Of a stretch of 64,000 nt of DNA, positions 3,354 to 60,181 are shown in pieces (positions within the stretch are counted from its first letter, which is position 1; every line of letters begins with the position of its first letter). The position numbers and the translations under genes were made by a program. The notes under the pieces were generated by a model, which was given only the letters and a program-made list of their open reading frames with translations, was not told the origin of the DNA and did no database searches. Source of the DNA: a virus (lineage: Duplodnaviria; Caudoviricetes); IMG/VR virus record IMGVR_UViG_3300012665_000990, positions 9,776-73,775 of that record, one strand, 5' to 3'.

Positions 3354-3354
3354 A

Positions 3355-3389: not shown

Positions 3390-3405
3390 AGAAGATTCCG
3401 TACTA

Positions 3406-3867: not shown

Positions 3868-3872
3868 CAGAC

Positions 3873-4421: not shown

Positions 4422-4449
4422 TATGAAGTTTGGTGCTATGACTAAAGTA

Positions 4450-4478
4450 TTGACTTTTTAATATTTTAAAAGTATAAT
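4450..4478 (+). promoter_or_regulatory. Sigma70-type promoter of the suf operon (probably leaderless)
   Basis: TTGACT, 17 nt, TATAAT; sufB ATG 5 nt downstream with no SD. Confidence 0.75.
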
Positions 4479-4483
4479 ACACT

Positions 4484-9288: not shown

Positions 9289-9314
9289 GATATTCAATCG
9301 TGGTAAATAACAGT

Positions 9315-17886: not shown

Positions 17887-17954
17887 TATATACAGTTTTT
17901 CCCAAAATCACTATAAGCGTTCTGGAAATAAATATATGAACGGGGCAGAATTTT

Positions 17955-20900: not shown

Positions 20901-20972
20901 GTAGATCCAAACGGATCTGCAACGTTCATATATTTGAACTTCTACTGGTGGCGTATTTCGCAGGTAAATTAA
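17955..20972 (+). CDS. Virion structural protein (1005 aa; fibre-like)
   Basis: Same N-terminal NDGTGEDLRSAFFKVNSNF motif; Ser/Thr/Gly-rich; late promoter TAAATA at 17929. Confidence 0.7.
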   Translation: MTIQYINVGTNANDGTGEDLRSAFFKVNSNFQYLAGLGGETNAGQNIGSGSGIYATKSGTLLQFKSLVAGAGVSITPDTSVITISSTAAQPNTISRIVGNSGSWDITQPNSTLQILGTPGSKATTSVSGNQVYITSNFSIVEDAIPTLGANLDLNEFDIGNIGTDSDEPTVGNINIAGYILANTLTIGRPLPGQPNPGTVTLNASLTVGGATQLSSLDATSINVSGGTLTASTITATSINAATIGNVIGSSNIYGTLVGNINSLYDDAIEVLNTDGPNATFTGNVIGSISGNITGSLVSPGLNLNNSTISGIGNITITGNSSSPIVPFTVVSNYRSPPADPTLPRALEDGPLSAVFAVQQQDTFGFNEAIRLRSYQTNGTQGKFLGAGVMFESINTINNNTIPDLDPEYIFHGFVSMQTYTDPDWSDFVVRTRTNVPLQEFDVLVASGDGRIHASGITINANIISNRLLNYSNFFTSNNPVELDLILTNYASGKYVNFYDAYKFPKTIGSPGQVLTVPAPGSNLLTWTTPSGGGGGGGGATYFVNLLDVPQTYLPSDAEKLVRVNSTYDGLEFASNITATVTGSLVGNASTATILETSRTINGVSFNGSANITFGTDSVSEGTTNQYYTDTRSRNSVSVTPSKALTYTAITGVFDLAESTASTGDTLVKRDASGKIHALTVYTDTLSVDAALSITVANNLTGSFDVNTSGVVSATNFVTTGTGDPTIESAGKIILDPATYIDVSGSKISNLATPTANTDASTKAYVDTAISTVDTAAVKSNIYTADSGGPITVTKGSTLTVEGGTNITTSASSNKITVNLDSTLSNISISGNLPATGNITSSAGYLKAGNIKIDGDAVTQTQTSTDLNLVPGLGGAVAIASYFNLVGTTMAVTGYDTLVIPADSTPVQVDLTTNLTFVRTLDWTGGVGGLANAQIGAGREGQIKTIILETRGVYGDALDTRPRYLVLSGNINGASRVVNIGTVDPNGSATFIYLNFYWWRISQVN

Positions 20973-35630: not shown

Positions 35631-36479
35631 ATGAAAGACTATTATAAGACTCTCGGCGTTCCTCGAAACGCATCACCAGATGAAATTAAAAAGGCCTACA
35701 GAAGCAAGGCAATGAAACATCACCCTGATCGAGGCGGTGATGAAAAAGTATTCAAAGAAATTAACGAAGCACATGATATACTAAGTGATCCACAGAAAAA
35801 ATCTATGTTGGATCAAGGAGTAGATCCGCTGAATCCAAATCAAGGCGGATTTGGTAATCATGAATTCCATTTTACTACAGGCGGGATGGACGATATATTG
35901 CGTGGCTTTGGATTTAACTTTGGATTTGGACAAGGACCAAGTTTTCAACAACGCCAACAACCAAGAAATAAATCTTTAAATGTTAATCTAACAATTAGTT
36001 TAGAAGAAGCATTTACGGGTGTTGAAAAAACAATTGAAATACAATATCCAACTGGACGTAAACAAATGAATATTACAATTCCTAAAGGAGTTGATAATGG
36101 TATGGCCATTCGTTATTCAGGAATGGGTGATGATTCAATTAGAAATATCCCTGCTGGAGATTTAACTATTAGCATCAATGTAATGCCACATCCTAAGTTT
36201 GCTAGAGAAGGTTTAAATCTTTTAACAGATTCAAATATTGATTGCTTTGATGCAATTCTTGGTACTTCGGTAGATATTAGGACATTAGACGGTCGTGTGC
36301 TACAATTAGTTGTGCCAGCAGGAACGCAAAGTGGAACTACTTTAGGATTGCGTAATGAGGGTATGACAGATCAAGCAGGTAATATTGGTAGGCTGTATGT
36401 CAGAGTAAATGTACAAATTCCAACTGATTTAGATTCAAATGCTATTAACATGGTTAAACATATTAAGGGTATCAAGTAA
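35631..36479 (+). CDS. dnaJ: DnaJ-family co-chaperone (type II, no Zn finger)
   Basis: DYYKTLGV, HHPD, G/F-rich linker, GDL C-terminal domain; probably leaderless start. Confidence 0.9.
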   Translation: MKDYYKTLGVPRNASPDEIKKAYRSKAMKHHPDRGGDEKVFKEINEAHDILSDPQKKSMLDQGVDPLNPNQGGFGNHEFHFTTGGMDDILRGFGFNFGFGQGPSFQQRQQPRNKSLNVNLTISLEEAFTGVEKTIEIQYPTGRKQMNITIPKGVDNGMAIRYSGMGDDSIRNIPAGDLTISINVMPHPKFAREGLNLLTDSNIDCFDAILGTSVDIRTLDGRVLQLVVPAGTQSGTTLGLRNEGMTDQAGNIGRLYVRVNVQIPTDLDSNAINMVKHIKGIK

Positions 36480-36988
36480 TGTTGAAAATTGTAAAACATC
36501 CAGACCCTATTTTAGAAGAAGTAATGCCAGCATTTGATTTTGCTAATCCAATTATGGATCCCAAGCAATTGGAAACAGAGATGTTAGCAGTAATGTTTGC
36601 ACATGACGGAATTGGCCTTGCCGCACCTCAAGTGGGAATTCGAACAAGAGTTTTTACCATGGGCCATATATTAATGAAAGAACAAAGTAATGCGTACTTT
36701 AATCCTGAAGTAGTTGATGCTAGTACTGATTTACTTGATATAGAAGAAGGGTGTTTGAGTTTCCCAACAGTTTTTGTTAAAATTAAACGACCAAGTTGGA
36801 TTGTAGGTAAGTATTTTGATAGCGAAGGCAACGAGCATCAAAATAAATTTGAAGGATATGATTGTAAATGCTTTTTACACGAGCTTGATCATTTAAACGG
36901 CATCAATTTTAAAGATAGACTTTCTACTTTAAAATGGGCCATGGCAGTTAAAAAATCTAAGAAAGTCAAAGTGAGGAACTATGCTTGA
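36479..36988 (+). CDS. def: Peptide deformylase
   Basis: GIGLAAPQVG, EEGCLSFP, HELDHLNG. Confidence 0.93.
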   Translation: MLKIVKHPDPILEEVMPAFDFANPIMDPKQLETEMLAVMFAHDGIGLAAPQVGIRTRVFTMGHILMKEQSNAYFNPEVVDASTDLLDIEEGCLSFPTVFVKIKRPSWIVGKYFDSEGNEHQNKFEGYDCKCFLHELDHLNGINFKDRLSTLKWAMAVKKSKKVKVRNYA

Positions 36989-39257
36989 ACCAAATGAAGA
37001 GTTAGAAGGTATTTTTGAACGTGCTGTATTGTTGGCTATCGAAAATAAACATCAATATATTACGTTGGAACACTTTCTACTAAGTTTAGTAAGTGATGAA
37101 AAGTTTGGCAAAAAGCTAAATGATTTTGGTACCGATGTTACAGATTTAAAATTAAATTTGACTAGTTACATTGCAAATGAATTGTCAACTATTGTTAATG
37201 AAAATCAAAGTAGCAGACCAAAGAAAACAAATAGTATTGAACGTATGTTAAATCGTGCGTTTACACAAACATTGTTTGCTGGCCGTACTACTATTGAACC
37301 TATTGATTGCTTCTTAAGCATATTGCATGAAAAGAAAAGTCATGCACATTACTACTTGCGTTTGGCTAAGATTGATAAAGACAAATTTGTAGAGTTTATC
37401 AATCAGGAAAACAACACTATTGAAAACGGTGAAGAAGCGACTATCCCAGAAAGTAAACTAGAAGCAGTTATTAATAATTTCTGTGTTAACTTGAATAACA
37501 GAGTTAAACAAAAGAAAATCGATCCAGTTATTGGTCGTGAAAAAGAAATTGAAGAGATTCAACTTGTATTGGCACGTAGACACAAATCAAACGTAATGAT
37601 GATTGGTGATCCTGGTGTAGGTAAGACTGCGATTGCTGAAGGTCTTGCTCGTAACATTGTTGAAGGCAAAGTACCAAAGTTTATCGAAGACCACACAGTC
37701 TATACATTGGATATCAGTGCGTTACTTGCTGGCAGTAAGTATCGTGGTGATTTTGAAGAAAGACTAAAGACTGTACTAACTGCTATTGAAAAGAAAAAGA
37801 AAGCTATTCTATTCATTGACGAAGCACACATGATGAATGGTGCTGGAGCAAGCAGTGGTCAAAGCAATGACATGGCTAATATGTTAAAACCAGCATTGGC
37901 CAAGGGCGGCTTTAAAGTTATTGCCAGTACTACATGGGAAGAATTCCGCAAGCACTTTGAAAAGGATCGTGCCCTAATGCGCAGATTCCAACGTGTTGTA
38001 GTTGACGAGCCAGATGAGGAAACAGCAATTAAGATCCTTACAGGACTTAAGAAGTATTACGAAAAACATCATGGTGTCAAAATTACCAAACAGGCAATTA
38101 TCGACAGCGTCAAGTATAGTATCAAGTACATGAGTGATAAGAAGTTGCCCGACAAGGCAATTGATATTATTGATTGTGCATGTGCTCGTTTTAAGATACG
38201 TGACGAAGAAAATGGCACTGTTGATCATGACGAAGTAGTTTATGAAGTTGCTAAAATGACTAACTTGCCGTTAGAGCAAGTTGCGGCTAAAGAGACTAAG
38301 AAACTTACAAACTTAGAAGATAGTTTGAAAGCAGAAGTGTTTGGTCAAGAAAATGCCATTGATACATTGCTTGATAAAATTTATATTGCTCAAGCAGGAC
38401 TTAAATCAGTCAACAAACCAGTTGGTAGTTTCTTGTTTGTAGGTCCCACTGGTTGTGGTAAAACTGAAACTGCTAAACAGCTGAGTGACAAAATGGGAAT
38501 TAAACTTGTACGTTTTGATATGAGTGAGTTCCAAGAAAAACACGCAGTGGCAAAGTTTATTGGTGCACCTCCAGGATATGTTGGCTTTGAAGACAATGCT
38601 GGACAATTGATTACTACATTACAAGAAACACCTAACTGTGTATTGTTATTAGATGAGATTGAAAAAGCACATCCTGATGTTGTTAACGTAATGTTACAAT
38701 TAATGGATAATGGATTCGTAACTGGCAGTAATGGTAAGAAAGCAGATGCACGTAACGCCATTATTATCATGACCAGTAACTTAGGTGCCGCAGATAGTGA
38801 AAAGAAAAACATTGGCTTTGGCAGTCAAGAAAAGTTAAGCGAAACTGATACTGCTGTTAATGCGTTCTTTGCTCCAGAGTTTAGAAATCGTTTAGACGGT
38901 ATTATTAAGTTTAAGAAACTTGGTCATAGTGTAATGCTCAAAGTTGTTGACAAGTTTGTGCGTGAAATGAACGAACTAATTTCTGATAAGAATGTGTTTG
39001 TACAATTAACAGACGTTGCACGTGACTATTTGGTTGAACAAGGATTTAACAGTAAAATGGGCGCACGTCCATTACAAAGAGTAATTGATGATAAAATTAA
39101 GAAGCCATTAAGCCGTGAAATACTGTTTGGTCAATTACTTAACGGTGGAATTGTTAAAGTTGACAAAACAGATGATGGTTTAGTATTTGATTATTTAGAT
39201 CCTCTACCCGTAGCATTAGAGCCAGAGGTAATTGAAGATGTCATTTCGGAAGATTGA
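36981..39257 (+). CDS. clpA: ClpA AAA+ unfoldase
   Basis: N domain, GDPGVGKT and GPTGCGKT Walker A motifs, RFDMSEF, GAPPGYVGF, IGF ClpP-docking loop. Confidence 0.93.
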   Translation: MLEPNEELEGIFERAVLLAIENKHQYITLEHFLLSLVSDEKFGKKLNDFGTDVTDLKLNLTSYIANELSTIVNENQSSRPKKTNSIERMLNRAFTQTLFAGRTTIEPIDCFLSILHEKKSHAHYYLRLAKIDKDKFVEFINQENNTIENGEEATIPESKLEAVINNFCVNLNNRVKQKKIDPVIGREKEIEEIQLVLARRHKSNVMMIGDPGVGKTAIAEGLARNIVEGKVPKFIEDHTVYTLDISALLAGSKYRGDFEERLKTVLTAIEKKKKAILFIDEAHMMNGAGASSGQSNDMANMLKPALAKGGFKVIASTTWEEFRKHFEKDRALMRRFQRVVVDEPDEETAIKILTGLKKYYEKHHGVKITKQAIIDSVKYSIKYMSDKKLPDKAIDIIDCACARFKIRDEENGTVDHDEVVYEVAKMTNLPLEQVAAKETKKLTNLEDSLKAEVFGQENAIDTLLDKIYIAQAGLKSVNKPVGSFLFVGPTGCGKTETAKQLSDKMGIKLVRFDMSEFQEKHAVAKFIGAPPGYVGFEDNAGQLITTLQETPNCVLLLDEIEKAHPDVVNVMLQLMDNGFVTGSNGKKADARNAIIIMTSNLGAADSEKKNIGFGSQEKLSETDTAVNAFFAPEFRNRLDGIIKFKKLGHSVMLKVVDKFVREMNELISDKNVFVQLTDVARDYLVEQGFNSKMGARPLQRVIDDKIKKPLSREILFGQLLNGGIVKVDKTDDGLVFDYLDPLPVALEPEVIEDVISED

Positions 39258-40348: not shown

Positions 40349-40372
40349 TTCATATCCCATTACGTTACAAAT

Positions 40373-40404
40373 AAATACATGATAGATTACTGTCATGTAT
40401 TTTT
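40373..40404 (+). terminator. Hairpin/terminator overlapping a late promoter
   Basis: AAATACATGATAG-ATTA-CTGTCATGTATTT followed by TT; TAAATA at 40372-40377 lies in the 5' arm. Confidence 0.6.
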
Positions 40405-40439: not shown

Positions 40440-40796
40440 ATGTTTTTAAGAGAATTTTTTAGTCAAAACACAAGCGTTGATAAAGAAGAAGAATCCAGTG
40501 AGGAACTATGTAAAGACCTCATGGCATATATCTTAGATCATGATGACCTTCATAAGAAATTAATGATCCCTATTCTTAACGATGTTAAGAAAGAAATAGC
40601 AAACAAAACATACGACAAGAAAACAGCCTATAAAAAGTATGACGAACTAGTTGATACAGCCTGTGTAATGTTTTATAAAGATGAAAAACTACAGGGCGAC
40701 CCAAATAAATTATTCCCTGCCCCATTAAGAGTTAAAGTTGCTCGACAATTGGCCCAAATTAACCAAGAGAGTCATAAAGAGCATGAGGATAACTGA
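40440..40796 (+). CDS. Hypothetical, putative internal head protein
   Basis: Degenerate leader MFLREFF; first gene of the tagged cluster. Confidence 0.5.
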   Translation: MFLREFFSQNTSVDKEEESSEELCKDLMAYILDHDDLHKKLMIPILNDVKKEIANKTYDKKTAYKKYDELVDTACVMFYKDEKLQGDPNKLFPAPLRVKVARQLAQINQESHKEHEDN

Positions 40797-41799
40797 ACTT
40801 TTTGAGGGCGGTTGGGACACTACTAAAACTCAACAAACTGTATTACATCCAAAGATAGTCAGTGTGGCTCTCAAGGTAGTAGATCAGTTTGTTTCTGATT
40901 TCAACAACTATCTAAAAAAACAAAATATCCCTCCAATTAAACGTGGAAAGCCTACAGGTAGTAGTGCTTATCATGAACAAGACTCGGTTGAGAGACCTGA
41001 TGTTATATATGGCGATATTGATTTACAAATGATTGGTAATCCTGTAGAAGGATTAACGTATGGTCAATTTACTAGTTATTGGAATGATCTTGCAGACAAA
41101 TTTGTTACAACAATACATCCGCAATATGTAGACACTAGTGAAAGCAAACCAGGACATCCCATATTTCAAGTTGGTCAAGATCAATACGTACAAGTTGATT
41201 TTATGTGGCATGAAGAAAAGATGGCAGAATGGGGTGCGGCACGTGTAACACCAGAACGTGGAATGAAGGGATTGCTAATGGGCAATATGTTTAGTGTGTT
41301 AGGTGAACTGCTAAACATGAGTATTCAACACGCAGGCGTTCAATTAAAAACAGTAAATGGACAACAAGTACCATTTAGTAAACAAAAAGGTGTTGAAGTT
41401 CAAACTCTCAGTATTAACCCAAGAACGTTTGTATACGATATCTTCAATTACCTACATCAACAAATTTTAGGTACACCAGCTAAAAAAGTTGATCCTCTGT
41501 TAAAACAATTTCCAGGTAACAATATTGACGATGTTAAAATTGCCACTATGGTAAATGCTGTTAAAGGCTTTGCTCGTAGTTGCGAGCTAAATCAGATGTT
41601 TGGGCAGGGCGCATTAGAGCCATATGCTAGTGCAGATGATTTTTTACAAAAGTTTTTAGCACGATACGATGAGAAAGCACAAATTGACATTGCAGGTAAG
41701 AAGCGTGACAAAGCAACAACCCCCGAAGCAATTGCTCGTGCAAATGCAGATCGTGAAAAGATACAAGGTGGTTTAGATATAGTTAAGGGGTTATTTTAA
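40783..41799 (+). CDS. Pol-beta-superfamily nucleotidyltransferase-like protein with capsid-targeting-like leader
   Basis: MRITELFE/GG leader; TGSS...GDIDLQ and VQVDFM acidic motifs. Confidence 0.65.
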   Translation: MRITELFEGGWDTTKTQQTVLHPKIVSVALKVVDQFVSDFNNYLKKQNIPPIKRGKPTGSSAYHEQDSVERPDVIYGDIDLQMIGNPVEGLTYGQFTSYWNDLADKFVTTIHPQYVDTSESKPGHPIFQVGQDQYVQVDFMWHEEKMAEWGAARVTPERGMKGLLMGNMFSVLGELLNMSIQHAGVQLKTVNGQQVPFSKQKGVEVQTLSINPRTFVYDIFNYLHQQILGTPAKKVDPLLKQFPGNNIDDVKIATMVNAVKGFARSCELNQMFGQGALEPYASADDFLQKFLARYDEKAQIDIAGKKRDKATTPEAIARANADREKIQGGLDIVKGLF

Positions 41800-42638
41800 T
41801 GCGTATTAATGAATTATTATTTGAAGCAGGGAAAAGACTTGCTAGTCAAGGTATTGAAGTGTCACGTGTTAATAAACAAGACTTTTTAACTGCCAAAGGC
41901 GCACTTGACCCTATATTAAAGAAAGCAGGCATTGTTGGTGGTTGGACTGCTGGCGGTGCTGGAAGTTTTGATCCAGAGCACCCATATGGTGGCGGTGGCA
42001 GAGAAGACAGTGGTGACATTGATATTATGATTGATCCACAAAATTTAACAAAACAATTTCCTCCAGACATAGAAGCATATAATTCTGCCAGTGCTAAACC
42101 AATTGGTCCAAAAGCAATGGCAAATGTTCTAGCAGATCCTGCTAAAAAAGCAAAATTAGAAATGAGTTCAAGTAAATGGGCATTAGCTGATTACATGAGC
42201 AGAAGTGGATTCCGTACTGACCCAGGAACACTAACTGTTGAATATGGTGCAGGTGGTAAAACATTTTCAGTAGACTTAATTGTGCGTCCAAAAGAATCAT
42301 GGGAACTACATACACATGACTTTGCTAAAGATACAACAATGCGTGGTGGCGATTTATGGATACAGATGTATCCAGTACTGGCTAAACTTGCTAGCCAAAA
42401 AACTTTTATTGATCCAAAGACAGGTGAAGAAAAAGGCAACTTGCAGTTTAGTCCAGACAGAGGCCTAGTAGATAGAGATACCAATCAAGTCATTGCTATT
42501 AAGAAAGATGACATTGCTAAAATACTATTAGGACCACAAGCAACTGCTAGAGACTTAGCCAGCATGAGTGGTATTAGAGCCGCACTAGCAAAACAGCCGC
42601 AAAAGTTATCCCAATTACCCCAACAGCAAACACAATAA
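41799..42638 (+). CDS. Pol-beta-superfamily nucleotidyltransferase-like protein with capsid-targeting-like leader
   Basis: MRINELLFE/AG leader; GAGS...DSGDIDIMID and FSVDLIV motifs. Confidence 0.65.
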   Translation: MRINELLFEAGKRLASQGIEVSRVNKQDFLTAKGALDPILKKAGIVGGWTAGGAGSFDPEHPYGGGGREDSGDIDIMIDPQNLTKQFPPDIEAYNSASAKPIGPKAMANVLADPAKKAKLEMSSSKWALADYMSRSGFRTDPGTLTVEYGAGGKTFSVDLIVRPKESWELHTHDFAKDTTMRGGDLWIQMYPVLAKLASQKTFIDPKTGEEKGNLQFSPDRGLVDRDTNQVIAIKKDDIAKILLGPQATARDLASMSGIRAALAKQPQKLSQLPQQQTQ

Positions 42639-42648
42639 ATATAACATT

Positions 42649-44544
42649 ATGTATTTGATAGAACTTTTTACACCATCTCGCAAAGCAATTATGGAAGGCA
42701 TTGACCATCCAGAAGACCTTATTATCTCTCAAGGTAGTACAGGTGCAGATCGTGTTCTAAAAGATTTAGCAAGTTTACAAACAGATCCAAGTACAGTGAG
42801 TGTTAAATGGGATGGATTCCCTGCCGTTGTTTTTGGTCGAGATGAAAATGGTAGTTTAGTATTCATGGACAAGCACATGTATGACAAAGTTGTCAAAGGT
42901 GCTATGAGTTTTATGAGTATTAAAGATTATGATATATCACGTGATGCAAATCGTGGCGACTTGTGGGAAAAAGAAAGTGTACTAAGACCAGCATTAGAGA
43001 AAGCTGTACCAAATGTAAAAAATCAATTTTGGATGGGTGATCTAATGTGGACTGGAACTCCGCCAACAAGTGATGGTTATTTTGTATTCAAACCAAACAC
43101 AGTTGAATATCGTGTACAAATAGATGACGGCAAGGGAAATAGTTTAGGTGACAAAATTGCTAGAAGTATTGGCGGTATTGCTGTACACACATATATTCCT
43201 GGTATTGGTTCAGGTGATCAACCATTAGTAGGATTAAAAGGTTTATCAGAAGATACAGGTGTTGTATTTTTGGTTGGTGAAATGAAAGACAAACCACGTG
43301 TCGGAATTAACACAGACCTATTAGCAGAAACACAAACTATTATTAATAACCATAGAACAGATGTTGATGAGTTTATTAAAGATTTAACAGCAATGAAGGG
43401 CAAGGCAGTTATTACTGCTATGGGCCCTTTCATTACACGTATGCTGGAAGAGAACGATATACAAACTAATATAGTTCCACGCTTCTTAGAATTTTTAAAA
43501 GAACGTTTAAATGAAACTGCACAGGCAAAATTCTTAGGTGCTAATAAAGATGGCTGGTTATATCAAGAAGGTCAAGGCGGACCAGGCTTACTAGGCATTT
43601 GGACCATGTGGGCCGCCATTGTTGATTTAAAACTGCATATCAAACAACAAATTGATACACAGCAACAAGGTAGTGAAGTTATTGCTATCACTGACGGACT
43701 AAATGCACACGAAGGTTATGTGTTTGGTGCAGGTAAAGACAAATTAAAATTAATTGATCGTTTAGGATTTAGCCGTGCTAACTTTGCTAAACATAAAGTA
43801 CCAGATGAAGAGATTGCACAAAAGAGTAAAATGCCTTTGGCAACATTCTGTTTTGGTCGTATGAACCCTCCTACAATGGGTCACGGTTTAGTAATGAACA
43901 AGACTATTGAGGCGGGTGGTGAAAATTCTTTTGTATTCTTAAGTAATAGTGTTGGTACTGATGATCCATTAGATCCAAATACAAAAGCACAATTCATTGC
44001 ACAAATTTATCCAGAAGTTGCTAGTCATATTGTAACTGATTACGTACAAGGTCCAATTTATGCGGCTAATTGGTTATACCAAAAAGGTTATCGCAACATG
44101 GCATTTGTTGCTGGCAGTGATAGACTAGGCAAAGAAAAAGGCAGTATTGAAAAATTATTAACTAGTTGGAACAGTGGTCCTATTCGTAGCACGGATCCAG
44201 CTGGAGCACGTGAACACGTGGTTATGCAATATATCAGTGCAGGTCAACGTGATGCTGATGCAGAAGGTGTAGAAGGTTACAGTGGAACTAAAGCTCGGCA
44301 AGCCGCAGTTGCTGGCAACGAACAACAATTCCAACAATTTACTGGTGTTGGTAATGATGTTATAGTTAACGGAAAAACTTTATACCAAACAGTAAGAGAA
44401 GGTTTAGGAATTAAAGATCAAGCGCAAAAACCTGCGCCAGTACAACAAAAACAACCTGTGCAACAACCTGCACAACAAACACAAGTTACTAAAAAAATTC
44501 CTGGTAAGGCACCAGCCAAAGTAGGAGCAGAGGAACAACTATGA
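42649..44544 (+). CDS. Two-domain protein: ligase-like KxDG domain plus HxGH-type cytidylyl/adenylyltransferase domain
   Basis: SVKWDGFPAVVFG, GDLMW, HEGYV, KLIDR in the N part; FGRMNPPTMGH, AGSDR, SGTKAR in the C part. Confidence 0.7.
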   Translation: MYLIELFTPSRKAIMEGIDHPEDLIISQGSTGADRVLKDLASLQTDPSTVSVKWDGFPAVVFGRDENGSLVFMDKHMYDKVVKGAMSFMSIKDYDISRDANRGDLWEKESVLRPALEKAVPNVKNQFWMGDLMWTGTPPTSDGYFVFKPNTVEYRVQIDDGKGNSLGDKIARSIGGIAVHTYIPGIGSGDQPLVGLKGLSEDTGVVFLVGEMKDKPRVGINTDLLAETQTIINNHRTDVDEFIKDLTAMKGKAVITAMGPFITRMLEENDIQTNIVPRFLEFLKERLNETAQAKFLGANKDGWLYQEGQGGPGLLGIWTMWAAIVDLKLHIKQQIDTQQQGSEVIAITDGLNAHEGYVFGAGKDKLKLIDRLGFSRANFAKHKVPDEEIAQKSKMPLATFCFGRMNPPTMGHGLVMNKTIEAGGENSFVFLSNSVGTDDPLDPNTKAQFIAQIYPEVASHIVTDYVQGPIYAANWLYQKGYRNMAFVAGSDRLGKEKGSIEKLLTSWNSGPIRSTDPAGAREHVVMQYISAGQRDADAEGVEGYSGTKARQAAVAGNEQQFQQFTGVGNDVIVNGKTLYQTVREGLGIKDQAQKPAPVQQKQPVQQPAQQTQVTKKIPGKAPAKVGAEEQL

Positions 44545-45761
44545 AAATCACACAAATAATTGAACATAAAAAAGGTGTTCGTGCAGTTAAGGCAACTGTT
44601 AAGCCAAGAAACTTTGTTGCTAAAAATGCAATTCAAAGTGGTGCTGGGGCACACAAAGATAAAAAGAAAGCAGCCAAACAAGGTGATGTTAAGCACAAAG
44701 CCCAATCAGTTGCAGAAGGTATTGGCGATACAATTTCTACCGTTGCTACAAAAGTTGGCGATGCACTAGCAGGTGCTTTACCAAAAGAATATAGACCTTT
44801 TGATAATGATACTGCCGCTAAAAATCAACAATCAATGAAAGTGGCTAAAAACGAAAGCAATGCCGAGTACGATGATGAAGCTGGTATGGCTGACAACAAT
44901 CTTGAAACACTTCGTCGTGCCGTGGACGGCATTGACGATGTTATCAATGCAGGCGATAACTTGCCTGAATGGTGTCAAGAAAAGATTGCAGTGGCTAAAT
45001 CAATGTTAATAGCAGTGTGGGATTATATGCGTTCAGAAGAAGAACGTGGCGTAAACGAACAAGTTGGTACCTATTCTAGCAGTAATATGCAAATGTCAGT
45101 AGACGGTGCTAGACAACTAGCTACTACAGATTTACTTAGAAAAAAATACGGAGACAATTTCCAAGATAAACCAGGAAATGGGATGCACTATAATCAAGAA
45201 GTCAAAACAATAGCTGATCCTAAAAACCCTGGGAAATATCACTCAACGGTAACATTAAAACCAAAAGATTATACGCTATCACCAAATATATCAGCAAGAC
45301 CTAGCATGGATCCTAATCAAGACTTTGATTATTTCCATAAAGGTGAACAACTAAAATCAGATCATCCACTTTTTAATAAAGTTAAGCAGATGCACATTGA
45401 CAGTTTAAACCCTGTGGCTGAACCAGATGTAAAAGAATCAAGAATGACAGAAGTATCACGCAACCCAGATACAATGAGCGCAACTGATTATGACCGTTAC
45501 CAACAAGGTCAAATGGACCAACAAAAGCGCAATTTCAAACGTGACGAAATGGAACACGAACTTGGCGACGAAGATCGCGGAATGTATTTTGTTGTGATTG
45601 CCAAGAATGGTAAATGGGAACATACTAAGGCGCAGCCTAGACAAGAAGGTATGAATGCCGCACAAAAAGTAATCAATGCATTACACGCCAAATATCCTAG
45701 TATGCATTTAGGTATGCAAGGACCAGACGGCAAAGTATATAATATGGGTAAAGGCAAATAA
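44541..45761 (+). CDS. Putative internal head protein with multiple protease sites
   Basis: MKITQIIE leader; internal VAE, VNE, VKE, MTE sites; LPEWCQEKI block. Confidence 0.55.
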   Translation: MKITQIIEHKKGVRAVKATVKPRNFVAKNAIQSGAGAHKDKKKAAKQGDVKHKAQSVAEGIGDTISTVATKVGDALAGALPKEYRPFDNDTAAKNQQSMKVAKNESNAEYDDEAGMADNNLETLRRAVDGIDDVINAGDNLPEWCQEKIAVAKSMLIAVWDYMRSEEERGVNEQVGTYSSSNMQMSVDGARQLATTDLLRKKYGDNFQDKPGNGMHYNQEVKTIADPKNPGKYHSTVTLKPKDYTLSPNISARPSMDPNQDFDYFHKGEQLKSDHPLFNKVKQMHIDSLNPVAEPDVKESRMTEVSRNPDTMSATDYDRYQQGQMDQQKRNFKRDEMEHELGDEDRGMYFVVIAKNGKWEHTKAQPRQEGMNAAQKVINALHAKYPSMHLGMQGPDGKVYNMGKGK

Positions 45762-45762
45762 G

Positions 45763-46197
45763 ATGGACAAGTATCAATTAGCTCTTAAAACAGCGTTTGC
45801 AAGTGAGTATGCATTTGCAATCAAAGCACAAAACTTTCATTGGAATGTAGAAGGTTCTCTGTTTCCACAACTACACGAGTTGTTTGAAAAAATTTATACA
45901 GAAGTTTATGGAAGCATTGACACTTTTGCAGAGCAATTACGTGCATTACAGATATATGCTCCCGCTAGTTTACAAAAATTTAGTATGCTATCAGTAGTTG
46001 AAGATGAAAACGAAATCCTTGAGCAAGGCGCTATGGTTGGTGAGCTATTAGATGATAGCGAAAAAATGGCTAACATTTTTAAATTAACATTTAGCATGGC
46101 TGAACAAGCTGGTGATCATGGGTTAAGTAACTTTTTAGCTGATCGTCAAGACGCACATAAGAAACACAGTTGGATGCTACGTAGCACGTTAAAATGA
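45763..46197 (+). CDS. dps: Dps/ferritin-like protein
   Basis: NFHWNVEG..FPQLHELFE, DTFAEQLR, HKKHSWML. Confidence 0.9.
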   Translation: MDKYQLALKTAFASEYAFAIKAQNFHWNVEGSLFPQLHELFEKIYTEVYGSIDTFAEQLRALQIYAPASLQKFSMLSVVEDENEILEQGAMVGELLDDSEKMANIFKLTFSMAEQAGDHGLSNFLADRQDAHKKHSWMLRSTLK

Positions 46198-46482: not shown

Positions 46483-47136
46483 ATGCGTATAACTGAATTA
46501 TTAGAAACTGTTGCCAAAAAACCTGAAGAAGTGGATCAGTCCAATCTAGCCACTATACAGGGAAATGTTTACGGTAATGAAAGCGGTTATGGAAAGGCCG
46601 ATACTACTAAACCAAACTATGCTGGTGCTTTAGGTCCAATGCAAATACTACCTAGTACATTTGACTGGATGAAACAAGCAAAGATAATTCCAACTGAATA
46701 TGATATCAATAATCCTGATCAAAATAGAGCGGCAGGCGATGCATTGTTAGGACACTATCATAAAAAATATCAAGGCGACCCTGCAAAAGTATATGCGGCG
46801 TATTACGCTGGCCCTGGAGCAATAAATAAAGATGGAAGTATTAATACTCACTGGAGAGATTTAAAAAATCCCAAAGCACCAACTGTAGGACAGTATATTG
46901 AAAAAGCAATGGCTAGAAGTGGTGGCAACACTAATAGTTTTATGGCGTCAATTAATAATGCGCCAAGTGCTGTTAAAGATTACGTTAGTTCAACATATGG
47001 TAGTATCAAAGACTTTGTAAGTTCAATGTCAAGGCCAGAAACAACGTTTGATCCAGAAGAAGAAAAACGTAAAGAAGAACTTAAAAAGAAACGCAAGGCA
47101 TTGGCAGCATTAAAGGCGCAAGGAAAGACAGCATGA
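46483..47136 (+). CDS. Lytic transglycosylase (SLT) with capsid-targeting-like leader
   Basis: MRITELLE leader; ESG (catalytic Glu), GALGPMQILPST, AAYYAGPG. Confidence 0.8.
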   Translation: MRITELLETVAKKPEEVDQSNLATIQGNVYGNESGYGKADTTKPNYAGALGPMQILPSTFDWMKQAKIIPTEYDINNPDQNRAAGDALLGHYHKKYQGDPAKVYAAYYAGPGAINKDGSINTHWRDLKNPKAPTVGQYIEKAMARSGGNTNSFMASINNAPSAVKDYVSSTYGSIKDFVSSMSRPETTFDPEEEKRKEELKKKRKALAALKAQGKTA

Positions 47137-47492
47137 GAATTAATGAATTACTAATTGAAGGCGGCAAATTACGTGCTAGTCAAGAAAACCCAATCAGCAG
47201 ATTACAAACATTCAATGCACTAAACATGTACAATGGTGACGGATATAAAGCATATCGTTTTGGCGTTGCACTTGCAGGATCGCCCGATGTTAATGTAGAA
47301 AACGAAAGTCCATTTGCTGGTGACTATACAGTTAAAAGTTATACTGATGAAGAACAAGAAATGATTAATCATGCGGCAAAACAATTAGGTATCAAGGGCT
47401 CTACAAAAGCTGGCAATGGCAGTTTAGAACCTAAAGGCACCAATACTGCTAGTCCAGTAGCAACAATTAAAAAGAACAAATACGGCGTATAA
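47133..47492 (+). CDS. Putative internal head protein
   Basis: MRINELLIE/GG leader. Confidence 0.55.
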   Translation: MRINELLIEGGKLRASQENPISRLQTFNALNMYNGDGYKAYRFGVALAGSPDVNVENESPFAGDYTVKSYTDEEQEMINHAAKQLGIKGSTKAGNGSLEPKGTNTASPVATIKKNKYGV

Positions 47493-47493
47493 T

Positions 47494-48078
47494 ATGAAGA
47501 TACAAGAAATTCTATTAGAATTTGAACTCCCAGGTGCTCTTAGAGATATACCAGTTGCTAATATATTTGGTGCAACACTCACTGCTGGCCAAATTTCTGA
47601 TGCAATTCCAGGTGCTGATCCAAGAACTGTAATCAAATACGGTAAACAAATTAACGATATTATACAAACTAATATAACACCAAATTATACTGTAGGTAGT
47701 GCTATTGCTGATATCGCAGTTGCATTGCCAATTGGTCGTGCAATTAAAGGTGCAAAAACTGCAACTCAAGCTACAAGTGCATTAGGCGGAGTTGCCGCAA
47801 GAAGAGAACTTGGCAGAGAATTAGCAAGTAATGTTACACTCATGCCAGGAATGTCAAACTCTTCAGGATCTAAAATTGAACCTGCAAATCAGCAACCAGT
47901 TAAAAAGAAAAGAAAAAATGTTGGTGAAGTTATTCCTGTTCCAATTGGTGGGAAACAGTATAATCTACCAATTATAAAAGTATTACCAAGTTCTGGATAC
48001 ATAGTTGATGCAAGCAAAGTTCCTGGTAAAAAACCAGGCGAAACAATAGATGCCCCAGAACCAGAGGATAAACTATAA
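47494..48078 (+). CDS. Putative internal head protein
   Basis: MKIQEILLE leader; basic KKKRK patch. Confidence 0.55.
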   Translation: MKIQEILLEFELPGALRDIPVANIFGATLTAGQISDAIPGADPRTVIKYGKQINDIIQTNITPNYTVGSAIADIAVALPIGRAIKGAKTATQATSALGGVAARRELGRELASNVTLMPGMSNSSGSKIEPANQQPVKKKRKNVGEVIPVPIGGKQYNLPIIKVLPSSGYIVDASKVPGKKPGETIDAPEPEDKL

Positions 48079-48323
48079 TGCGTATTCAAGATTTATTAGT
48101 AGAAGCAGGTAGTGAAGGCGGTACTACTACCGCATCATTAGGTCCAGCTAATCCTACTGCTAATTTAAGCCCAGGGTCAGCCCGTGGAAAGAAAAGTTAT
48201 TTAGGTAGTCCAGGATCAGGGTCAGGAACTAAAGCACCACCACAGCCAAAGCCAAAAAAGCAAAAACCAACAGATAATGCCCTAGATGGCGATAGTATCT
48301 TTGGCACACCGCAAAAACGATAA
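48078..48323 (+). CDS. Putative internal head protein (small, disordered)
   Basis: MRIQDLLVE/AG leader; Gly/Pro/Lys-rich. Confidence 0.55.
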   Translation: MRIQDLLVEAGSEGGTTTASLGPANPTANLSPGSARGKKSYLGSPGSGSGTKAPPQPKPKKQKPTDNALDGDSIFGTPQKR

Positions 48324-59416: not shown

Positions 59417-60181
59417 ATGACTGAATCCGTAATATTTAAAAACATACTTGCTGGCGCAGAACAGCAAGGTGACGATGACAAAAACTACAAAGAAGCTAAC
59501 CTAGCAGATGTATTACGTTTTAAAATGAAACGTGATAATAAACGCTTTTGGGCTGGAGATAACATTAGCGAATATGTTAGCGAAGACGACAAAGAAATTT
59601 TAATCAAAGAAGCAACTGTAGCATTTGAAAAAGTTTTAGACACATTGCTTATTGATCGTGAAAACGATCCTAACTCGCATGGTACTGCAAAGCGACTAGC
59701 TAAAATGTACTTTAATGAAATAATGGCAGGAAGATATGAACCAGCACCAGACGCAACAGCATTTCCAAACGACTCGCAGGACCGTTACGAAGGTATGTTG
59801 GTTGTTCGTAGTGAGCTTCGCAGTATGTGTAGCCATCATCACCAACCCGTTAGTGGTGTTGCTTATATTGGCATTATTGCCGCTAATAAACTTATCGGCT
59901 TATCTAAGTACACACGTATCGCACAGTGGTGTGCAAGACGAGGTACTCTCCAGGAGGAACTTTGTAATGACATTGCTAGGGAAATCCAAAAAGCAACAGG
60001 TGCAACAGATTTAGGCGTTTACATTCAAGCAACACACGGATGTTGCGAGAATCGTGGCATTATGGCACATTCTAGTCTAACACAAACTACAGTATTACAA
60101 GGTTCTTTTAAAACTGACCCAAGTGCTAAGAAAGAATTCTTTGACAATATTAAAATGCAACAAGAGTTTGCGCCACGATAA
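59417..60181 (+). CDS. folE: GTP cyclohydrolase I
   Basis: TAKRLAKMY, SMCSHH, IGLSKYTR, LQEEL, HGCCENRG, FFD. Confidence 0.92.
   Translation: MTESVIFKNILAGAEQQGDDDKNYKEANLADVLRFKMKRDNKRFWAGDNISEYVSEDDKEILIKEATVAFEKVLDTLLIDRENDPNSHGTAKRLAKMYFNEIMAGRYEPAPDATAFPNDSQDRYEGMLVVRSELRSMCSHHHQPVSGVAYIGIIAANKLIGLSKYTRIAQWCARRGTLQEELCNDIAREIQKATGATDLGVYIQATHGCCENRGIMAHSSLTQTTVLQGSFKTDPSAKKEFFDNIKMQQEFAPR

What the first reader, a model, noticed from the sequence alone, without database searches (positions are those of the whole stretch)
40783..44544. Three consecutive genes covering three unrelated nucleotidyltransferase folds
Seen: two Pol-beta-type NTases (GS...GDID plus a third Asp) followed by a protein joining a ligase/capping-like KWDG domain (with EGYV and KLIDR resembling motifs IV/V) to an HxGH/SxTxxR adenylyltransferase domain (NMNAT/PPAT-like). 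The first two carry the tag and the third a degenerate version. Inference: a co-delivered nucleotide-transfer module. Possible roles are tRNA/RNA repair (CCA re-addition plus ligation) against host anticodon nucleases, NAD+ regeneration against NADase defences, diversion of CBASS/Thoeris-type signals, or NMPylation of host machinery as a functional analogue of T4 Alt. I know no characterised system with this combination.
Basis: partly seen in the sequence, partly recalled or inferred. Interest (0 to 1): 0.8.

Follow-up and report, generated by a model that had tools for sequence, protein, structure and literature searches.

The report
Phage head-packaged polymerase-ligase enzyme kit
Three neighbouring genes of a giant T4-like water phage encode two small DNA-polymerase-X-like enzymes and an RNA-ligase-like enzyme fused to an NAD/CoA-type adenylyltransferase. 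Each starts with the short tag that T4 uses to load proteins into its head, so they are probably injected with the DNA as a strand-repair kit, though no activity has been measured.

Summary
ORF1 (40783-41799), ORF2 (41799-42638) and ORF3 (42649-44544) carry four nucleotidyl-transfer domains of three folds.

- **ORF2:** it folds with high confidence as a minimal family-X polymerase core (palm plus thumb; Z 9.6 to Pol beta and Pol mu, Z 8.3 to ASFV Pol X).
- **ORF1:** it could not be folded. It is a distant paralogue of ORF2, and its GS / DxD / D residues align in register with ORF2's.
- **ORF3, N-terminal half:** this is Pfam DUF6267. It matches only RNA ligases (NgrRnl, T4 Rnl1, Trl1) and keeps ligase motifs I, IV and V.
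- **ORF3, C-terminal half:** it is an NMNAT/PPAT-like HIGH-type transferase (Z 11.7).

Eight genes between 40.8 and 48.3 kb begin with a T4 capsid-targeting-like leader that ends in (L/I)xE. Relatives encode a T4-type prohead protease. A homologous cyanophage cytidylyltransferase has been found in virions by mass spectrometry.

In metagenomes the same domains occur fused in several orders, with (L/I/V)xE sites at the junctions.

Best reading: ejected enzymes that extend and seal nucleic-acid ends early in infection. The substrate (DNA or RNA) and the role of the adenylyltransferase are unknown.

The scan has already found the same combination on other phage DNA. No paper describes it.

The parts
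40371..40377 (+). ATAAATA, the core of a T4/cyanophage-type late promoter, 69 nt upstream of the ORF at 40440 that overlaps ORF1
   Evidence: The window has 8 copies against 32 +/- 5.5 expected. All 8 are on the + strand, and 7 of 8 lie 12-108 nt upstream of gene starts, including the fibre genes. Promoter function is inferred.
40783..41799 (+). ORF1, 338 aa. It has an 8-residue leader (40783-40806) ending L-F-E, then a Pol-beta-type NTase core. Putative catalytic residues: G59-S60 (40957-40962), D78 and D80 (41014-41022), D139 (41197-41199).
   Evidence: Residues invariant in 37 homologues. hhalign of the core against ORF2 scores 34.6 (P 5e-5) with the three motifs in register; 100 column shuffles gave mean 13.5, maximum 22. 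No Pfam, PHROG, NCBIfam or PDB sequence hit. Not folded.
41799..42638 (+). ORF2, 279 aa. It has a 9-residue leader (41799-41825) ending L-F-E, then a minimal family-X-polymerase-like palm plus thumb. Residues: G55-S56 (41961-41966), D73 and D75 (42015-42023), D159 (42273-42275), and an invariant H171-x-H173-D174.
   Evidence: AF2 model pLDDT 87.6, pTM 0.82, residues 1-10 disordered. Foldseek top hits Pol lambda and Pol beta, E 3e-4. VIA Z 9.6, rmsd 3.2-3.3 A over 167-179 residues, to Pol mu and to Pol beta 139-335. In the unbiased search of 48,161 chains the top 7 are all family X polymerases, ASFV Pol X scores Z 8.3 with 157 of 176 residues aligned, and all 50 rows are Pol-beta-fold NTases. 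Weak PF14792 match at residues 67-86.
42635..42641 (+). ATAAATA late-promoter-like core, 14 nt upstream of ORF3
42649..42696 (+). ORF3 leader, 16 residues, ending I-M-E immediately before the conserved G-I-x-H-P-E-D start of the ligase-like domain
   Evidence: Residues 1-15 are disordered in the model. A [LIVMF]xE site lies within 10 residues upstream of the domain start in 64 of 96 relatives, against a 13% background, whether the domain is N-terminal or internal.
42697..43803 (+). ORF3 residues 17-385: DUF6267, an RNA-ligase-like covalent nucleotidyltransferase domain with a helical insert (about residues 222-340) before motif IV. Putative AMP-accepting Lys53 (42805-42807); E355-G356 (43711-43716); K367 (43747-43749).
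   Evidence: Pfam PF19782, E 2e-32. AF2 pLDDT 89.8. The only matches to this half among the top 50 of 48,161 chains are RNA ligases: NgrRnl 5cot Z 8.1 (183 aligned), T4 Rnl1 Z 6.9, Trl1 ligase domains Z 6.7 and 6.6. Motif conservation.
43831..44418 (+). ORF3 residues 395-590: HIGH-type (Rossmann) nucleotidyltransferase, NMNAT/PPAT-like. TxGH at 43873-43884; S545...R550 at 44281-44298.
   Evidence: VIA Z 11.7 NadM NMNAT, 11.6 PPAT, 11.3 M. jannaschii NMNAT. Foldseek E 1.6e-4 to NadM. PHROG 3041 'cytidyltransferase' 3e-33. 27% identity, E 3e-14, to the virion protein S-CREM2 gp154.
44443..44544 (+). ORF3 residues 599-631: disordered Gln/Lys/Pro-rich tail
   Evidence: pLDDT below 50
44541..45761 (+). 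Leader-tagged protein of unknown function, 406 aa
46483..47136 (+). Leader-tagged lytic transglycosylase (SLT domain), a typical ejected cell-wall-opening enzyme
   Evidence: PF01464, E 1.6e-15; PHROG 'internal virion protein with endolysin domain'; tag
47133..48323 (+). Three further leader-tagged small proteins (47133-47492, 47494-48078, 48078-48323)
   Evidence: In most relatives a paralogue of the first lies between ORF1 and ORF2.

Best explanation
The three genes belong to a late-expressed cluster of head cargo proteins in a roughly 350 kb T4-like (Kyanoviridae-like) phage.

**Loading and processing (inferred).** Each protein is made with a short N-terminal leader that works like the T4 capsid targeting sequence. 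The leader takes the protein into the prohead core. The T4-type prohead protease then cuts after the Glu of the (L/I)xE that ends the leader.

**Mature enzymes (folds shown).**
- ORF1 and ORF2 are two divergent polymerase-X-like nucleotidyltransferases.
- ORF3 is a bifunctional protein joining an RNA-ligase-like Lys-AMP enzyme (DUF6267) to an NMNAT/PPAT-like adenylyltransferase.

**Delivery and action (inferred).** The enzymes lie in the DNA-filled head and are ejected into the host with the genome. There they act together on broken polynucleotide ends. The Pol X-like enzymes add the missing nucleotide(s) to a 3'-OH, and the ligase-like domain seals the nick through Lys53-AMP. The adenylyltransferase domain supplies or recycles an adenylylated cofactor or intermediate.

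**Status of each step.**
- Shown here: the folds, the conserved catalytic residues, the shared leader, the synteny and the natural fusions.
- Inferred: packaging, cleavage, ejection and the fill-and-seal chemistry.
- Open: whether the target is the phage's own damaged or restricted DNA, or RNA cut by host nucleases.
For: **Folds and residues.**
- ORF2 matches the Pol X palm plus thumb.
- ORF1 is a paralogue of ORF2 with the catalytic motifs aligned and invariant.
- The ORF3 N-terminal domain matches RNA ligases only and keeps motifs I, IV and V.
- The ORF3 C-terminal domain matches NMNAT/PPAT.

**Leader and packaging.**
- The leader occurs on 8 gene starts and nowhere else in six frames, with different codons.
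- All copies end in (L/I)xE, the T4 gp21 type of site: 10-20-residue propeptides cut after Glu (PMC5694885, PMC9026906).
- The leader is unstructured in both models.
- The Peptidase_S77 prohead protease is present in two related contigs.
- One tagged neighbour is a lytic transglycosylase, a classic ejected protein.
- S-CREM2 gp154 is homologous to the ORF3 C-terminal domain, has a similar leader, and was found in CsCl-purified virions by mass spectrometry (PMC10665884).
- ATAAATA late-promoter-like cores lie before the cluster and before ORF3. The motif is depleted four-fold elsewhere in the window.

**Functional linkage.**
- ORF1, ORF2 and ORF3 are adjacent in most of the 29 related contigs, although their order varies.
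- 24 of the 150 most similar 50%-identity cluster representatives of ORF3 carry an ORF1- or ORF2-like domain fused to the ligase-like and/or HIGH domain, in at least six arrangements.
- 37 of the 63 long ORF1 homologues contain DUF6267.
- Two of the fusions were checked on their contigs as uninterrupted genes, one of them in three samples.

**Precedent in the literature.** A Pol-beta NTase predicted to work beside RNA ligases to restore lost nucleotides (RlaP) has been described for jumbo phages (PMC7824862).
Against: - No biochemical activity, virion proteome or transcript data exist for this phage. The contig is a 21% fragment without its own protease or capsid genes.
- The fusions may be polyprotein cargo rather than pathway partners. 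Their junctions keep (L/I/V)xE-Gly sites. ORF1 is also found fused to unrelated domains: GNAT, GH19 lysozyme, Amidoligase_2 and AIG2/GGACT.
- ORF1 is missing next to ORF2-ORF3 in the more distant relatives, and both ORF1 and ORF2 are missing in others (L021-L025). The set is therefore not obligate.
- ORF2 lacks the 8-kDa/HhH DNA-binding part of Pol beta. Its best Z of 9.6 is only moderately above the tool's usual background.
- The ligase-like matches (Z 6.6-8.1) are modest, and they came from a 631-residue model, a size at which the tool warns that single-domain matches can come out weak or be missed.
- The role proposed for the adenylyltransferase is guesswork.
- S-PM2's homologue starts without an obvious leader.
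Confidence: 0.5

Rival explanations
1. The enzymes are an injected RNA (tRNA) repair kit against host anticodon nucleases. The Pol-beta-fold enzymes restore lost nucleotides or CCA ends and the DUF6267 domain reseals the RNA, as T4 Pnkp/Rnl1 and the predicted RlaP-ligase systems do. This is a sub-case of the best explanation, with RNA as the substrate.
For: - All structural matches of the ligase-like domain are RNA ligases: Rnl5, Rnl1 and Trl1.
- The domain has no OB domain of the kind DNA ligases have (secondary structure).
- RlaP-type NTases are predicted to accompany RNA ligases in jumbo phages (PMC7824862).
Against: - ORF2's nearest structures are DNA polymerases of family X, not CCA-adding enzymes or TUTases. 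The latter align only over the roughly 100-residue core, at Z up to 8.2.
- No RlaP match.
- No polynucleotide kinase or phosphatase was found in the window.
- One fused relative carries a deoxynucleotidase-type NT5C domain.
- A few injected molecules would have to repair an abundant tRNA pool.
Confidence: 0.2
2. The proteins are independent cargo effectors that share only the packaging route. ORF1 and ORF2 nucleotidylate host tRNA, proteins or small molecules (as MenT, ANT or AMPylators do). The HIGH domain adjusts NAD+/CoA-type cofactors. There is no joint pathway.
For: - T4 internal proteins are an unrelated set united only by the CTS (PMC3012670).
- The fusions look like cleavable polyproteins.
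- ORF1 also fuses to GNAT, lysozyme and amidoligase domains.
- Gene order and content vary among relatives.
- MenT1 and ANT(2'') appear among the weaker structural matches of ORF2, at Z 7.1 and 6.0.
Against: - Pol X-like domains are joined to the ligase-like/HIGH pair in at least six different arrangements, far more often than to anything else.
- ORF2 matches the polymerase thumb as well as the core, which small-molecule and protein NMPylators lack.
Confidence: 0.17
3. This is an NAD+ supply or counter-defence module. The NMNAT-like domain rebuilds NAD+ at the start of infection to defeat NAD-depleting defences (Thoeris, SIR2, DSR), in the manner of the phage NARP pathways. The other domains are accessory.
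For: - The best structural matches of the C-terminal domain include NadM and archaeal NMNATs.
- The cyanophage literature already speculates that virion cytidyltransferases act as NMNAT (PMC10665884).
Against: - NMNAT, PPAT and NaMNAT matches are tied, with Z 11.3-11.7.
- No Nampt was found to make NMN, in this fragment or in two 61-70% complete relatives.
- A handful of injected molecules is unlikely to restore a cellular NAD+ pool.
- This reading does not explain the ligase-like and Pol X-like partners.
Confidence: 0.08
4. The proteins are not packaged. The shared N-terminus is a translation or expression signal, or a degradation or localisation tag, of cytoplasmic late enzymes. Alternatively the proteins are non-catalytic core or scaffold components.
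For: There is no virion proteome for this phage. Its prohead protease was not seen in the fragment.
Against: - The tag is conserved as protein, not as RNA.
- It ends in the protease-type site, and that site also flanks internal domains in the fused relatives.
- A homologue is in virions (PMC10665884).
- The catalytic residues are invariant over hundreds of homologues, which argues against a purely structural role.
Confidence: 0.05

Closest known systems
T4 internal proteins IPI-III and Alt, loaded through the capsid targeting sequence and trimmed by prohead protease gp21
   Same: - Short N-terminal leader (8-16 residues here; 10-20 in T4) ending in a hydrophobic-x-Glu site.
- The leader sits on a set of otherwise unrelated proteins encoded side by side.
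- Relatives encode a T4-type Peptidase_S77 protease.
- T4's cargo includes an enzyme (Alt) and anti-defence proteins (PMC3012670, PMC9026906).
   Different: The cargo here is polynucleotide-type nucleotidyltransferases, not an ADP-ribosyltransferase or nuclease inhibitors. Packaging and cleavage are not shown for this phage. The leader sequence is only similar to T4's, not identical.
African swine fever virus Pol X with its DNA ligase (minimal base-excision repair pair); eukaryotic Pol beta / Lig3
   Same: ORF2 aligns with the whole 174-residue ASFV Pol X (Z 8.3, 157 residues) and with the palm plus thumb of Pol beta. Like ASFV Pol X it lacks the 8-kDa and fingers parts. It is paired with a ligase-superfamily enzyme.
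   Different: - No detectable sequence similarity: PF14792 scores 11.5 bits against a 25-bit cut-off.
- ORF2 has a roughly 55-residue helical insert.
- The partner looks like an RNA ligase, not a DNA ligase with an OB domain.
- The proteins carry head-targeting leaders.
- That ASFV carries its repair enzymes in the virion is from my memory, not checked here.
[quoted passage not shown]
   Same: A Pol-beta-fold NTase genomically coupled to an ATP-type RNA-ligase-fold enzyme in large phages. RlaP is predicted to restore nucleotides before ligation (PMC7824862).
   Different: - ORF1 and ORF2 give no PF10127 match even at E 10 on a single-genome search.
- The ligase-like partner is DUF6267, not Rnl1 or Rnl2.
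- No kinase or phosphatase healing enzyme is present in the window.
- The RlaP systems are not known to be virion cargo.
Virion-associated 'cytidylyltransferase' of T4-like cyanophages (e.g. S-CREM2 gp154)
   Same: Homologous to ORF3 residues about 375-570 (27% identity, E 3e-14). It has a similar leader and was detected in purified virions (PMC10665884).
   Different: In the cyanophages it is a separate gene, usually next to a DUF6267 gene. Here the two are fused, and two Pol X-like genes precede them that have no match in 50,697 sequenced phages.
NadM / archaeal NMNAT and bacterial PPAT (HIGH-motif adenylyltransferases)
   Same: Rossmann fold at Z 11.3-11.7 over 152-170 residues, with (T/H)xGH and SxxxxR motifs.
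   Different: The first His of the motif is Thr. There is no Pfam PF01467 or NCBIfam hit for the window protein. The substrate is unknown.

Membership tests
Pol-beta-fold nucleotidyltransferase superfamily | hG[GS] ... DxD ... third Asp on the neighbouring strand | tested here: met
   ORF1: G59-S60, D78/D80 and D139 are invariant in 37 sequences. ORF2: G55-S56, D73/D75 and D159 are invariant in 40 sequences. The spacer between GS and DxD is long, at 16-17 residues.
Pol-beta-fold nucleotidyltransferase superfamily | alpha-beta-alpha-beta-alpha-beta core fold (ORF2) | tested here: met
   In the search of 48,161 chains all 50 best rows are Pol-beta-fold NTases. The model has pLDDT 87.6.
Pol-beta-fold nucleotidyltransferase superfamily | the same core fold in ORF1 | tested here: inconclusive
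hhalign against ORF2 gives score 34.6, probability 67%, with the three motifs in register; shuffled controls reached at most 22.
Family X DNA polymerases (Pol beta, lambda, mu, TdT, ASFV Pol X) | palm plus thumb (nucleotide-selection) subdomains | tested here: met
   ORF2 residues 15-257 align with Pol beta 139-335 at Z 9.6, rmsd 3.3 A, 167 residues. ASFV Pol X aligns over its whole chain at Z 8.3.
Family X DNA polymerases (Pol beta, lambda, mu, TdT, ASFV Pol X) | sequence membership (PF14792 palm profile above its cut-off) | tested here: not met
   11.5 bits against a cut-off of 25, covering the DxD stretch only. No Pfam hit in 40 homologues.
Family X DNA polymerases (Pol beta, lambda, mu, TdT, ASFV Pol X) | 8-kDa dRP-lyase and helix-hairpin-helix DNA-binding subdomains | tested here: not met
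   The protein has 279 residues, and most alignments start at Pol beta residue 139. ASFV Pol X lacks these subdomains too.
RlaP (PF10127) | match to the family profile | tested here: not met
   No match at E <= 10 in this contig or in two relatives. None appeared in the Pfam scans of 77 homologues.
Covalent nucleotidyltransferases (ATP/NAD ligases, capping enzymes) | motif I KxDG lysine, with motifs III/IIIa, IV (EG) and V in order | tested here: met
   K53, D55 and G56 are kept in 100% of relatives; D131 and Y154 in 100%; E355-G356 in 97%; K367 and R371 in 100%. Motif V is K-x-x-x-R rather than K-x-K.
Covalent nucleotidyltransferases (ATP/NAD ligases, capping enzymes) | nucleotidyltransferase domain fold | tested here: met
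   NgrRnl Z 8.1 (183 residues), T4 Rnl1 6.9, Trl1 6.7 and 6.6. These are the only matches to residues 1-383 among the top 50. The Z values are modest, and the tool warns that single-domain matches can come out weak for a model this large (631 residues).
Covalent nucleotidyltransferases (ATP/NAD ligases, capping enzymes) | formation of a covalent Lys-AMP intermediate | not testable with these tools
   Needs a self-adenylylation assay.
Rnl1 / Rnl2 / Rnl5 RNA ligase families | family-specific flanking domain and sequence profile | tested here: not met
   A 60-sequence profile gives no PDB sequence match to any ligase at E <= 10. The helical insert before motif IV is not a feature I know of in Rnl1; that comparison is from memory. 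The domain is filed as its own family, DUF6267.
HIGH-motif nucleotidyltransferases (PF01467 clan; NMNAT, PPAT, CTs) | Rossmann fold with (H/T)xGH and a C-terminal SxxxxR motif | tested here: met
   Z 11.7-11.3. T409-x-G-H412 and S545...R550 are conserved.
HIGH-motif nucleotidyltransferases (PF01467 clan; NMNAT, PPAT, CTs) | match to Pfam PF01467 | tested here: inconclusive
   The window protein gives no hit at E <= 0.1. The fused relative P0324 hits at 32.6 bits, above the cut-off.
NMNAT specifically | NMN + ATP -> NAD+ activity | not testable with these tools
   The structural scores for NMNAT, PPAT and NaMNAT are tied.
T4-type CTS-loaded head cargo | short N-terminal propeptide ending in (L/I)xE | tested here: met
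   Found on 8 genes. The same site lies before internal domains in the fused relatives.
T4-type CTS-loaded head cargo | T4-type prohead protease in the same phage | tested here: inconclusive
   Absent from this 74 kb fragment. Present in two related contigs at 91-93 bits.
T4-type CTS-loaded head cargo | the processed protein is present in virions | not testable with these tools
   Known only for the homologue S-CREM2 gp154, from 3 peptides (PMC10665884).

The most novel reading that the evidence does not exclude
The DUF6267 domain takes its AMP from NAD+ rather than ATP. The fused NMNAT-like domain re-adenylylates the released NMN with ATP on the same polypeptide. The phage would then inject a strand-sealing enzyme that carries its own NAD+ cycle, so it would keep working in a host that has destroyed its NAD+ as an anti-phage defence. 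A variant of this reading is that the HIGH domain directly adenylylates 5'-phosphate ends. In either form, together with two new minimal polymerase-X-like enzymes, this would be the first virion-delivered fill-and-seal repair machine known in a phage.
Probability: 0.1. Interest if true: 0.85.

Novelty: new variant of a known kind. Interest (0 to 1): 0.62.

Why it matters
- **A new function for a common family.** DUF6267 and the 'cytidyltransferase' are among the commonest genes of marine and freshwater T4-like phages: 2,902 clusters at 50% identity match ORF3, and 481 sequenced phages carry a homologue. No paper in the searched library mentions DUF6267. Showing that it is a ligase-fold enzyme gives it a testable function.
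- **Two unrecognised polymerase-like families.** ORF1 and ORF2 have about 700 and 141 metagenomic homologues, but no Pfam, PHROG or NCBIfam model and no match in sequenced phages. They represent previously unrecognised minimal polymerase-X-like families.
- **A wider view of phage cargo.** If the leader really loads these enzymes into the head, phages inject not only anti-restriction proteins and RNA polymerases but a nucleic-acid repair set. That bears on how aquatic phages survive sunlight damage or host nucleases in the first minutes of infection.
- **A possible tool.** The leader-plus-cleavage-site logic, including natural polyproteins, could also be used for loading foreign proteins into large phage heads.

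Tried and rejected
- **Sequence searches on ORF1 and ORF2 found nothing.** Pfam, PHROGs, NCBIfam, PDB phmmer and PDB profile searches were all empty. tblastn against 50,697 phage records was also empty.
- **Sequence-to-PDB search for ORF3.** The ORF3 profile against PDB sequences gave only noise, so the fold evidence rests on the predicted structures.
- **Whole-length comparison of ORF1 and ORF2.** The first whole-length hhalign gave a spurious top alignment. The relationship appears when the cores are compared or alternative alignments are listed.
- **Protein-atlas leads.** They pointed to a viral cluster in which 33% of members carry PF01909. They were used only as a hint.
- **TATAAATA.** The exact T4 late promoter occurs once in the window, and not at this cluster. 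A TATAAAT copy 8 nt before the ATG at 40440 is too close to that start to serve it. The shorter ATAAATA core gave the clearer pattern.
- **Partner enzymes.** No Nampt (PF04095) and no NT5C (PF06941) were found in this contig or in two relatives.
- **Complex prediction.** A prediction of ORF2 with the ligase-like domain was sent seven times, and the machine could not be reached. There is no result.

Full report
**What the window is.** The 64 kb come from a 73,775-base viral contig that CheckV rates 21% complete, which implies a genome of about 350 kb. Contigs of 296-354 kb carry close homologues. The gene content is that of a T4-like myovirus:
- a gp43-type DNA polymerase at 50604-53279;
- giant fibre-like proteins at 9646-25147;
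- a full suf operon, superoxide dismutase, UvdE, QueD and FolE;
- DnaJ, a peptide deformylase and a ClpA-like protein upstream of the finding.

The nearest sequenced phages are Kyanoviridae: cyanomyoviruses, Pelagibacter phage HTVC008M and the Methylophilales phage Melnitz. They match only at 22-32% protein identity for ORF3 and not at all at the DNA level.

**The observation.** Three tightly packed + strand ORFs occupy 40783-44544.
- ORF1: G59-S60, D78-x-D80 and D139 are invariant in 37 homologues.
- ORF2: G55-S56, D73-x-D75, D159 and an H171-x-H173-D174 motif are invariant in 40 homologues reaching down to 31% identity.
- ORF3, in diverse relatives at 24-64% identity: K53-x-D55-G56, D131, Y154, E355-G356, K367 and R371 in the first half; the G-R-x-N-P-P-T-x-G-H stretch and S545...R550 in the second half.

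**ORF2.** No sequence method recognised ORF2.
- AlphaFold2 on alignment A2 gave a confident model: pLDDT 87.6, pTM 0.82, with only the first ten residues disordered.
- Foldseek's best PDB matches are Pol lambda and Pol beta, at E 3e-4.
- VIA-align gives Z 9.6 at 3.2-3.3 A over 167-179 residues, to Pol mu and to Pol beta residues 139-335, that is, palm plus thumb.
- In the search of 48,161 representative chains that does not depend on Foldseek, the seven best are all family X polymerases. The 174-residue ASFV Pol X is covered almost completely (Z 8.3, 157 residues).
- Every one of the 50 rows listed is a Pol-beta-fold transferase. TUTases, MenT, CCA-adding enzymes, CD-NTases, OAS and ANT align only over the roughly 100-residue core.
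- Among predicted viral structures the matches are uncharacterised proteins of uncultured Caudovirales, a protein of the jumbo Agrobacterium phage Atu_ph07, and giant-virus Pol X enzymes.
- The Pol X palm profile PF14792 touches the DxD stretch weakly: 11.5 bits, E 0.016 on this contig, below the cut-off.

ORF2 is therefore a minimal polymerase-X-like enzyme by structure, but not a recognisable family member by sequence.

- Profile-profile comparison of the ORF1 core (residues 20-165) with the ORF2 core gives a 129-column alignment: score 34.6, P 5e-5, probability 67%. In it the GS, DxD and third-Asp motifs of the two proteins coincide.
- One hundred column-shuffled controls averaged 13.5 +/- 2.6 (maximum 22), and the reversed profile scored 13.
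- With alternative alignments listed, the match extends to 185 columns.

I take ORF1 to be a distant paralogue of ORF2. This is inferred, not shown by structure.

**ORF3.** Pfam calls residues 18-383 DUF6267 (E 2e-32). PHROGs call residues 371-612 'cytidyltransferase'. The AlphaFold2 model is very confident: pLDDT 89.8, with residues 1-15 and 599-631 disordered.
- C-terminal domain: it matches NadM NMNAT (Z 11.7), PPAT (11.6), a putative NaMNAT (11.4) and M. jannaschii NMNAT (11.3). These are tied, so the substrate cannot be read from the fold.
- N-terminal domain: its only matches among the top 50 are RNA ligases. These are Naegleria NgrRnl (Z 8.1, 183 residues), T4 Rnl1 (6.9) and two fungal Trl1 ligase domains (6.7 and 6.6).

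The domain has a helical insert of roughly 120 residues before motif IV and no OB domain. No paper in the searched library mentions DUF6267.

**The tag.**
- A loose pattern for the shared N-terminus matches eight times in all six frames. Each match is the first codon of an ORF: 40783, 41799, 42649, 44541, 46483, 47133, 47494 and 48078. Synonymous codons differ between the copies.
- All the leaders end in (L/I)-x-E after 8-9 residues, or after 16 in ORF3. The leaders are the disordered parts of both models.
- The T4 literature describes 10-20-residue N-terminal propeptides, the capsid targeting sequences. They load otherwise unrelated internal proteins into the prohead and are cut off after a Glu by the prohead protease (PMC3012670, PMC9026906, PMC5694885).
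- This fragment does not contain a prohead protease. Two related contigs of 215 and 246 kb encode a Peptidase_S77 protein at 91-93 bits.
- One of the tagged proteins is a lytic transglycosylase, the kind of enzyme other phages eject.
- S-CREM2 gp154 was detected in purified virions (PMC10665884). It is homologous to the ORF3 C-terminal domain (E 3e-14) and begins with a similar leader ending L-T-E. That paper notes that cytidyltransferases are frequently found in cyanophage virion proteomes.
- The late-promoter-like core ATAAATA occurs 8 times against 32 +/- 5.5 expected, only on the coding strand. Seven of the eight copies lie 12-108 nt upstream of gene starts: before the fibre genes, at 40371 ahead of the ORF1/ORF2 transcription unit, and at 42635 ahead of ORF3.

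**Are the three genes a unit?**
- In 29 related viral contigs the block from the ClpA-like gene through ORF1, ORF2 and ORF3 to the polymerase is conserved. The order of ORF1 and ORF2 can swap. ORF1 is missing beside ORF2-ORF3 in the more distant relatives, and the most distant have ORF3 alone.
Twenty-four of them carry such a domain fused to the ligase-like and/or HIGH domain. The arrangements are Pol X-like then ligase (16); ORF2, ligase, HIGH (2); ligase then Pol X-like (2); ligase then ORF1 (2); ligase, ORF1, Pol X-like (1); and HIGH then Pol X-like (1).
- P0248 is a full-length ORF2 homologue (E 3e-67) joined to an ORF3 homologue. P0248 and P0348 are uninterrupted genes on their contigs, and P0348 occurs in three samples.
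- From the ORF1 side, 37 of the 63 long homologues contain DUF6267.

**A caveat that changes how the fusions should be read.**
- The junctions keep the protease-type site. Examples are I-S-E before the ligase start in P0248, I-V-E before the G-G-W start of the ORF1 part, and L-N-E before the third domain in P0348.
- A [LIVMF]xE site lies within ten residues upstream of the ligase-like domain in 64 of 96 relatives, against a background of 13%, whether the domain is first or internal.
- ORF1 is also fused elsewhere to GNAT, GH19 lysozyme, Amidoligase_2 and AIG2/GGACT domains.

The fusions may therefore be polyproteins that share one leader and are cut apart in the head. That supports the cleavage model, but it weakens the inference that fused partners act in one pathway. 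The strong preference of Pol X-like domains for the ligase-like/HIGH pair, in several independent arrangements, still favours a functional set.

**Mechanism.** The best-supported account is a head-loaded, ejected set of polynucleotide end-repair enzymes. Pol X-like transferases extend or fill a 3' end, a Lys53-AMP ligase seals it, and an adenylyltransferase of unknown substrate assists.

The known analogues are:
- T4's CTS cargo, for delivery;
- ASFV Pol X plus ligase, for minimal fill-and-seal;
- the RlaP/RNA-ligase systems predicted for jumbo phages (PMC7824862), although ORF1 and ORF2 are not RlaP members.

DNA versus RNA is unresolved. The polymerase-like parts resemble DNA polymerases and the ligase-like part resembles RNA ligases. 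An NAD+-salvage role lacks a Nampt partner.

**Novelty.** Each ingredient belongs to a known kind. The combination as phage head cargo, the ligase-fold identity of DUF6267 and the two Pol X-like families do not appear in the literature I could search. Other agents of this scan have reached similar readings on other phage DNA, so this is a recurrent feature of T4-like aquatic phages and not a peculiarity of this contig.

Noticed in passing
window 1653-9644: The phage carries a complete Fe-S cluster assembly set: SufB, SufC, SufD, SufS, a SufE-FeS_assembly_P fusion and a SufA-like protein. It also has an Fe/Mn superoxide dismutase, a UvdE UV endonuclease and QueD. A Dps/ferritin gene without a leader sits inside the tagged cluster at 45763-46197.
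   Followed up: partly
window, whole; 1545, 3861, 17928, 25110, 40371, 42635, 46822, 48320: ATAAATA is four-fold depleted (8 against 32 expected). It is found only on the coding strand, almost always just upstream of gene starts. This is the signature of a T4/cyanophage-type late promoter that is purged elsewhere.
   Followed up: partly
window 47133-47492 and L005-L012, L020, L026-L031: The small tagged protein at 47133 resembles ORF2 beyond the leader, over roughly the first 17 residues. In most relatives a paralogue of it sits between ORF1 and ORF2. Its function is unknown.
   Followed up: no
proteins P0042, P0065, P0079, P0114, P0090 (ORF1 homologues): Longer ORF1 homologues keep the leader at the extreme N-terminus and insert an extra module between the leader and the ORF1 core, which always starts at E-G-G-W. 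The module is a GNAT acetyltransferase in P0042 and P0065 and is unknown in the others.
   Followed up: partly
alignment A2, rows P0200-P0240: A distant subgroup of ORF2 homologues (about 31% identity) lacks the N-terminal leader. Together with some closer members it carries a conserved C-terminal extension (E-G-T-x-x-W-F ...). This may be a C-terminal propeptide; T4 Alt is trimmed at both ends (PMC9026906).
   Followed up: no
proteins P0245, P0393-P0397, P0401-P0402, P0410: Some multi-domain relatives combine these cargo domains with NT5C deoxynucleotidase, DUF5661, GH19 lysozyme plus LysM, Amidoligase_2 or AIG2/GGACT domains. They reach 1,657 residues and look like natural cargo polyproteins.
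   Followed up: partly
window 35631-39257: DnaJ, peptide deformylase and a ClpA-like AAA+ protein are encoded back to back immediately upstream of the cargo cluster. The arrangement is conserved in relatives.
   Followed up: no
window 59417-60181 and 1653-2183: GTP cyclohydrolase I (FolE) and QueD-type PTPS are present, which suggests a 7-deazaguanine DNA-modification pathway.
   Followed up: no
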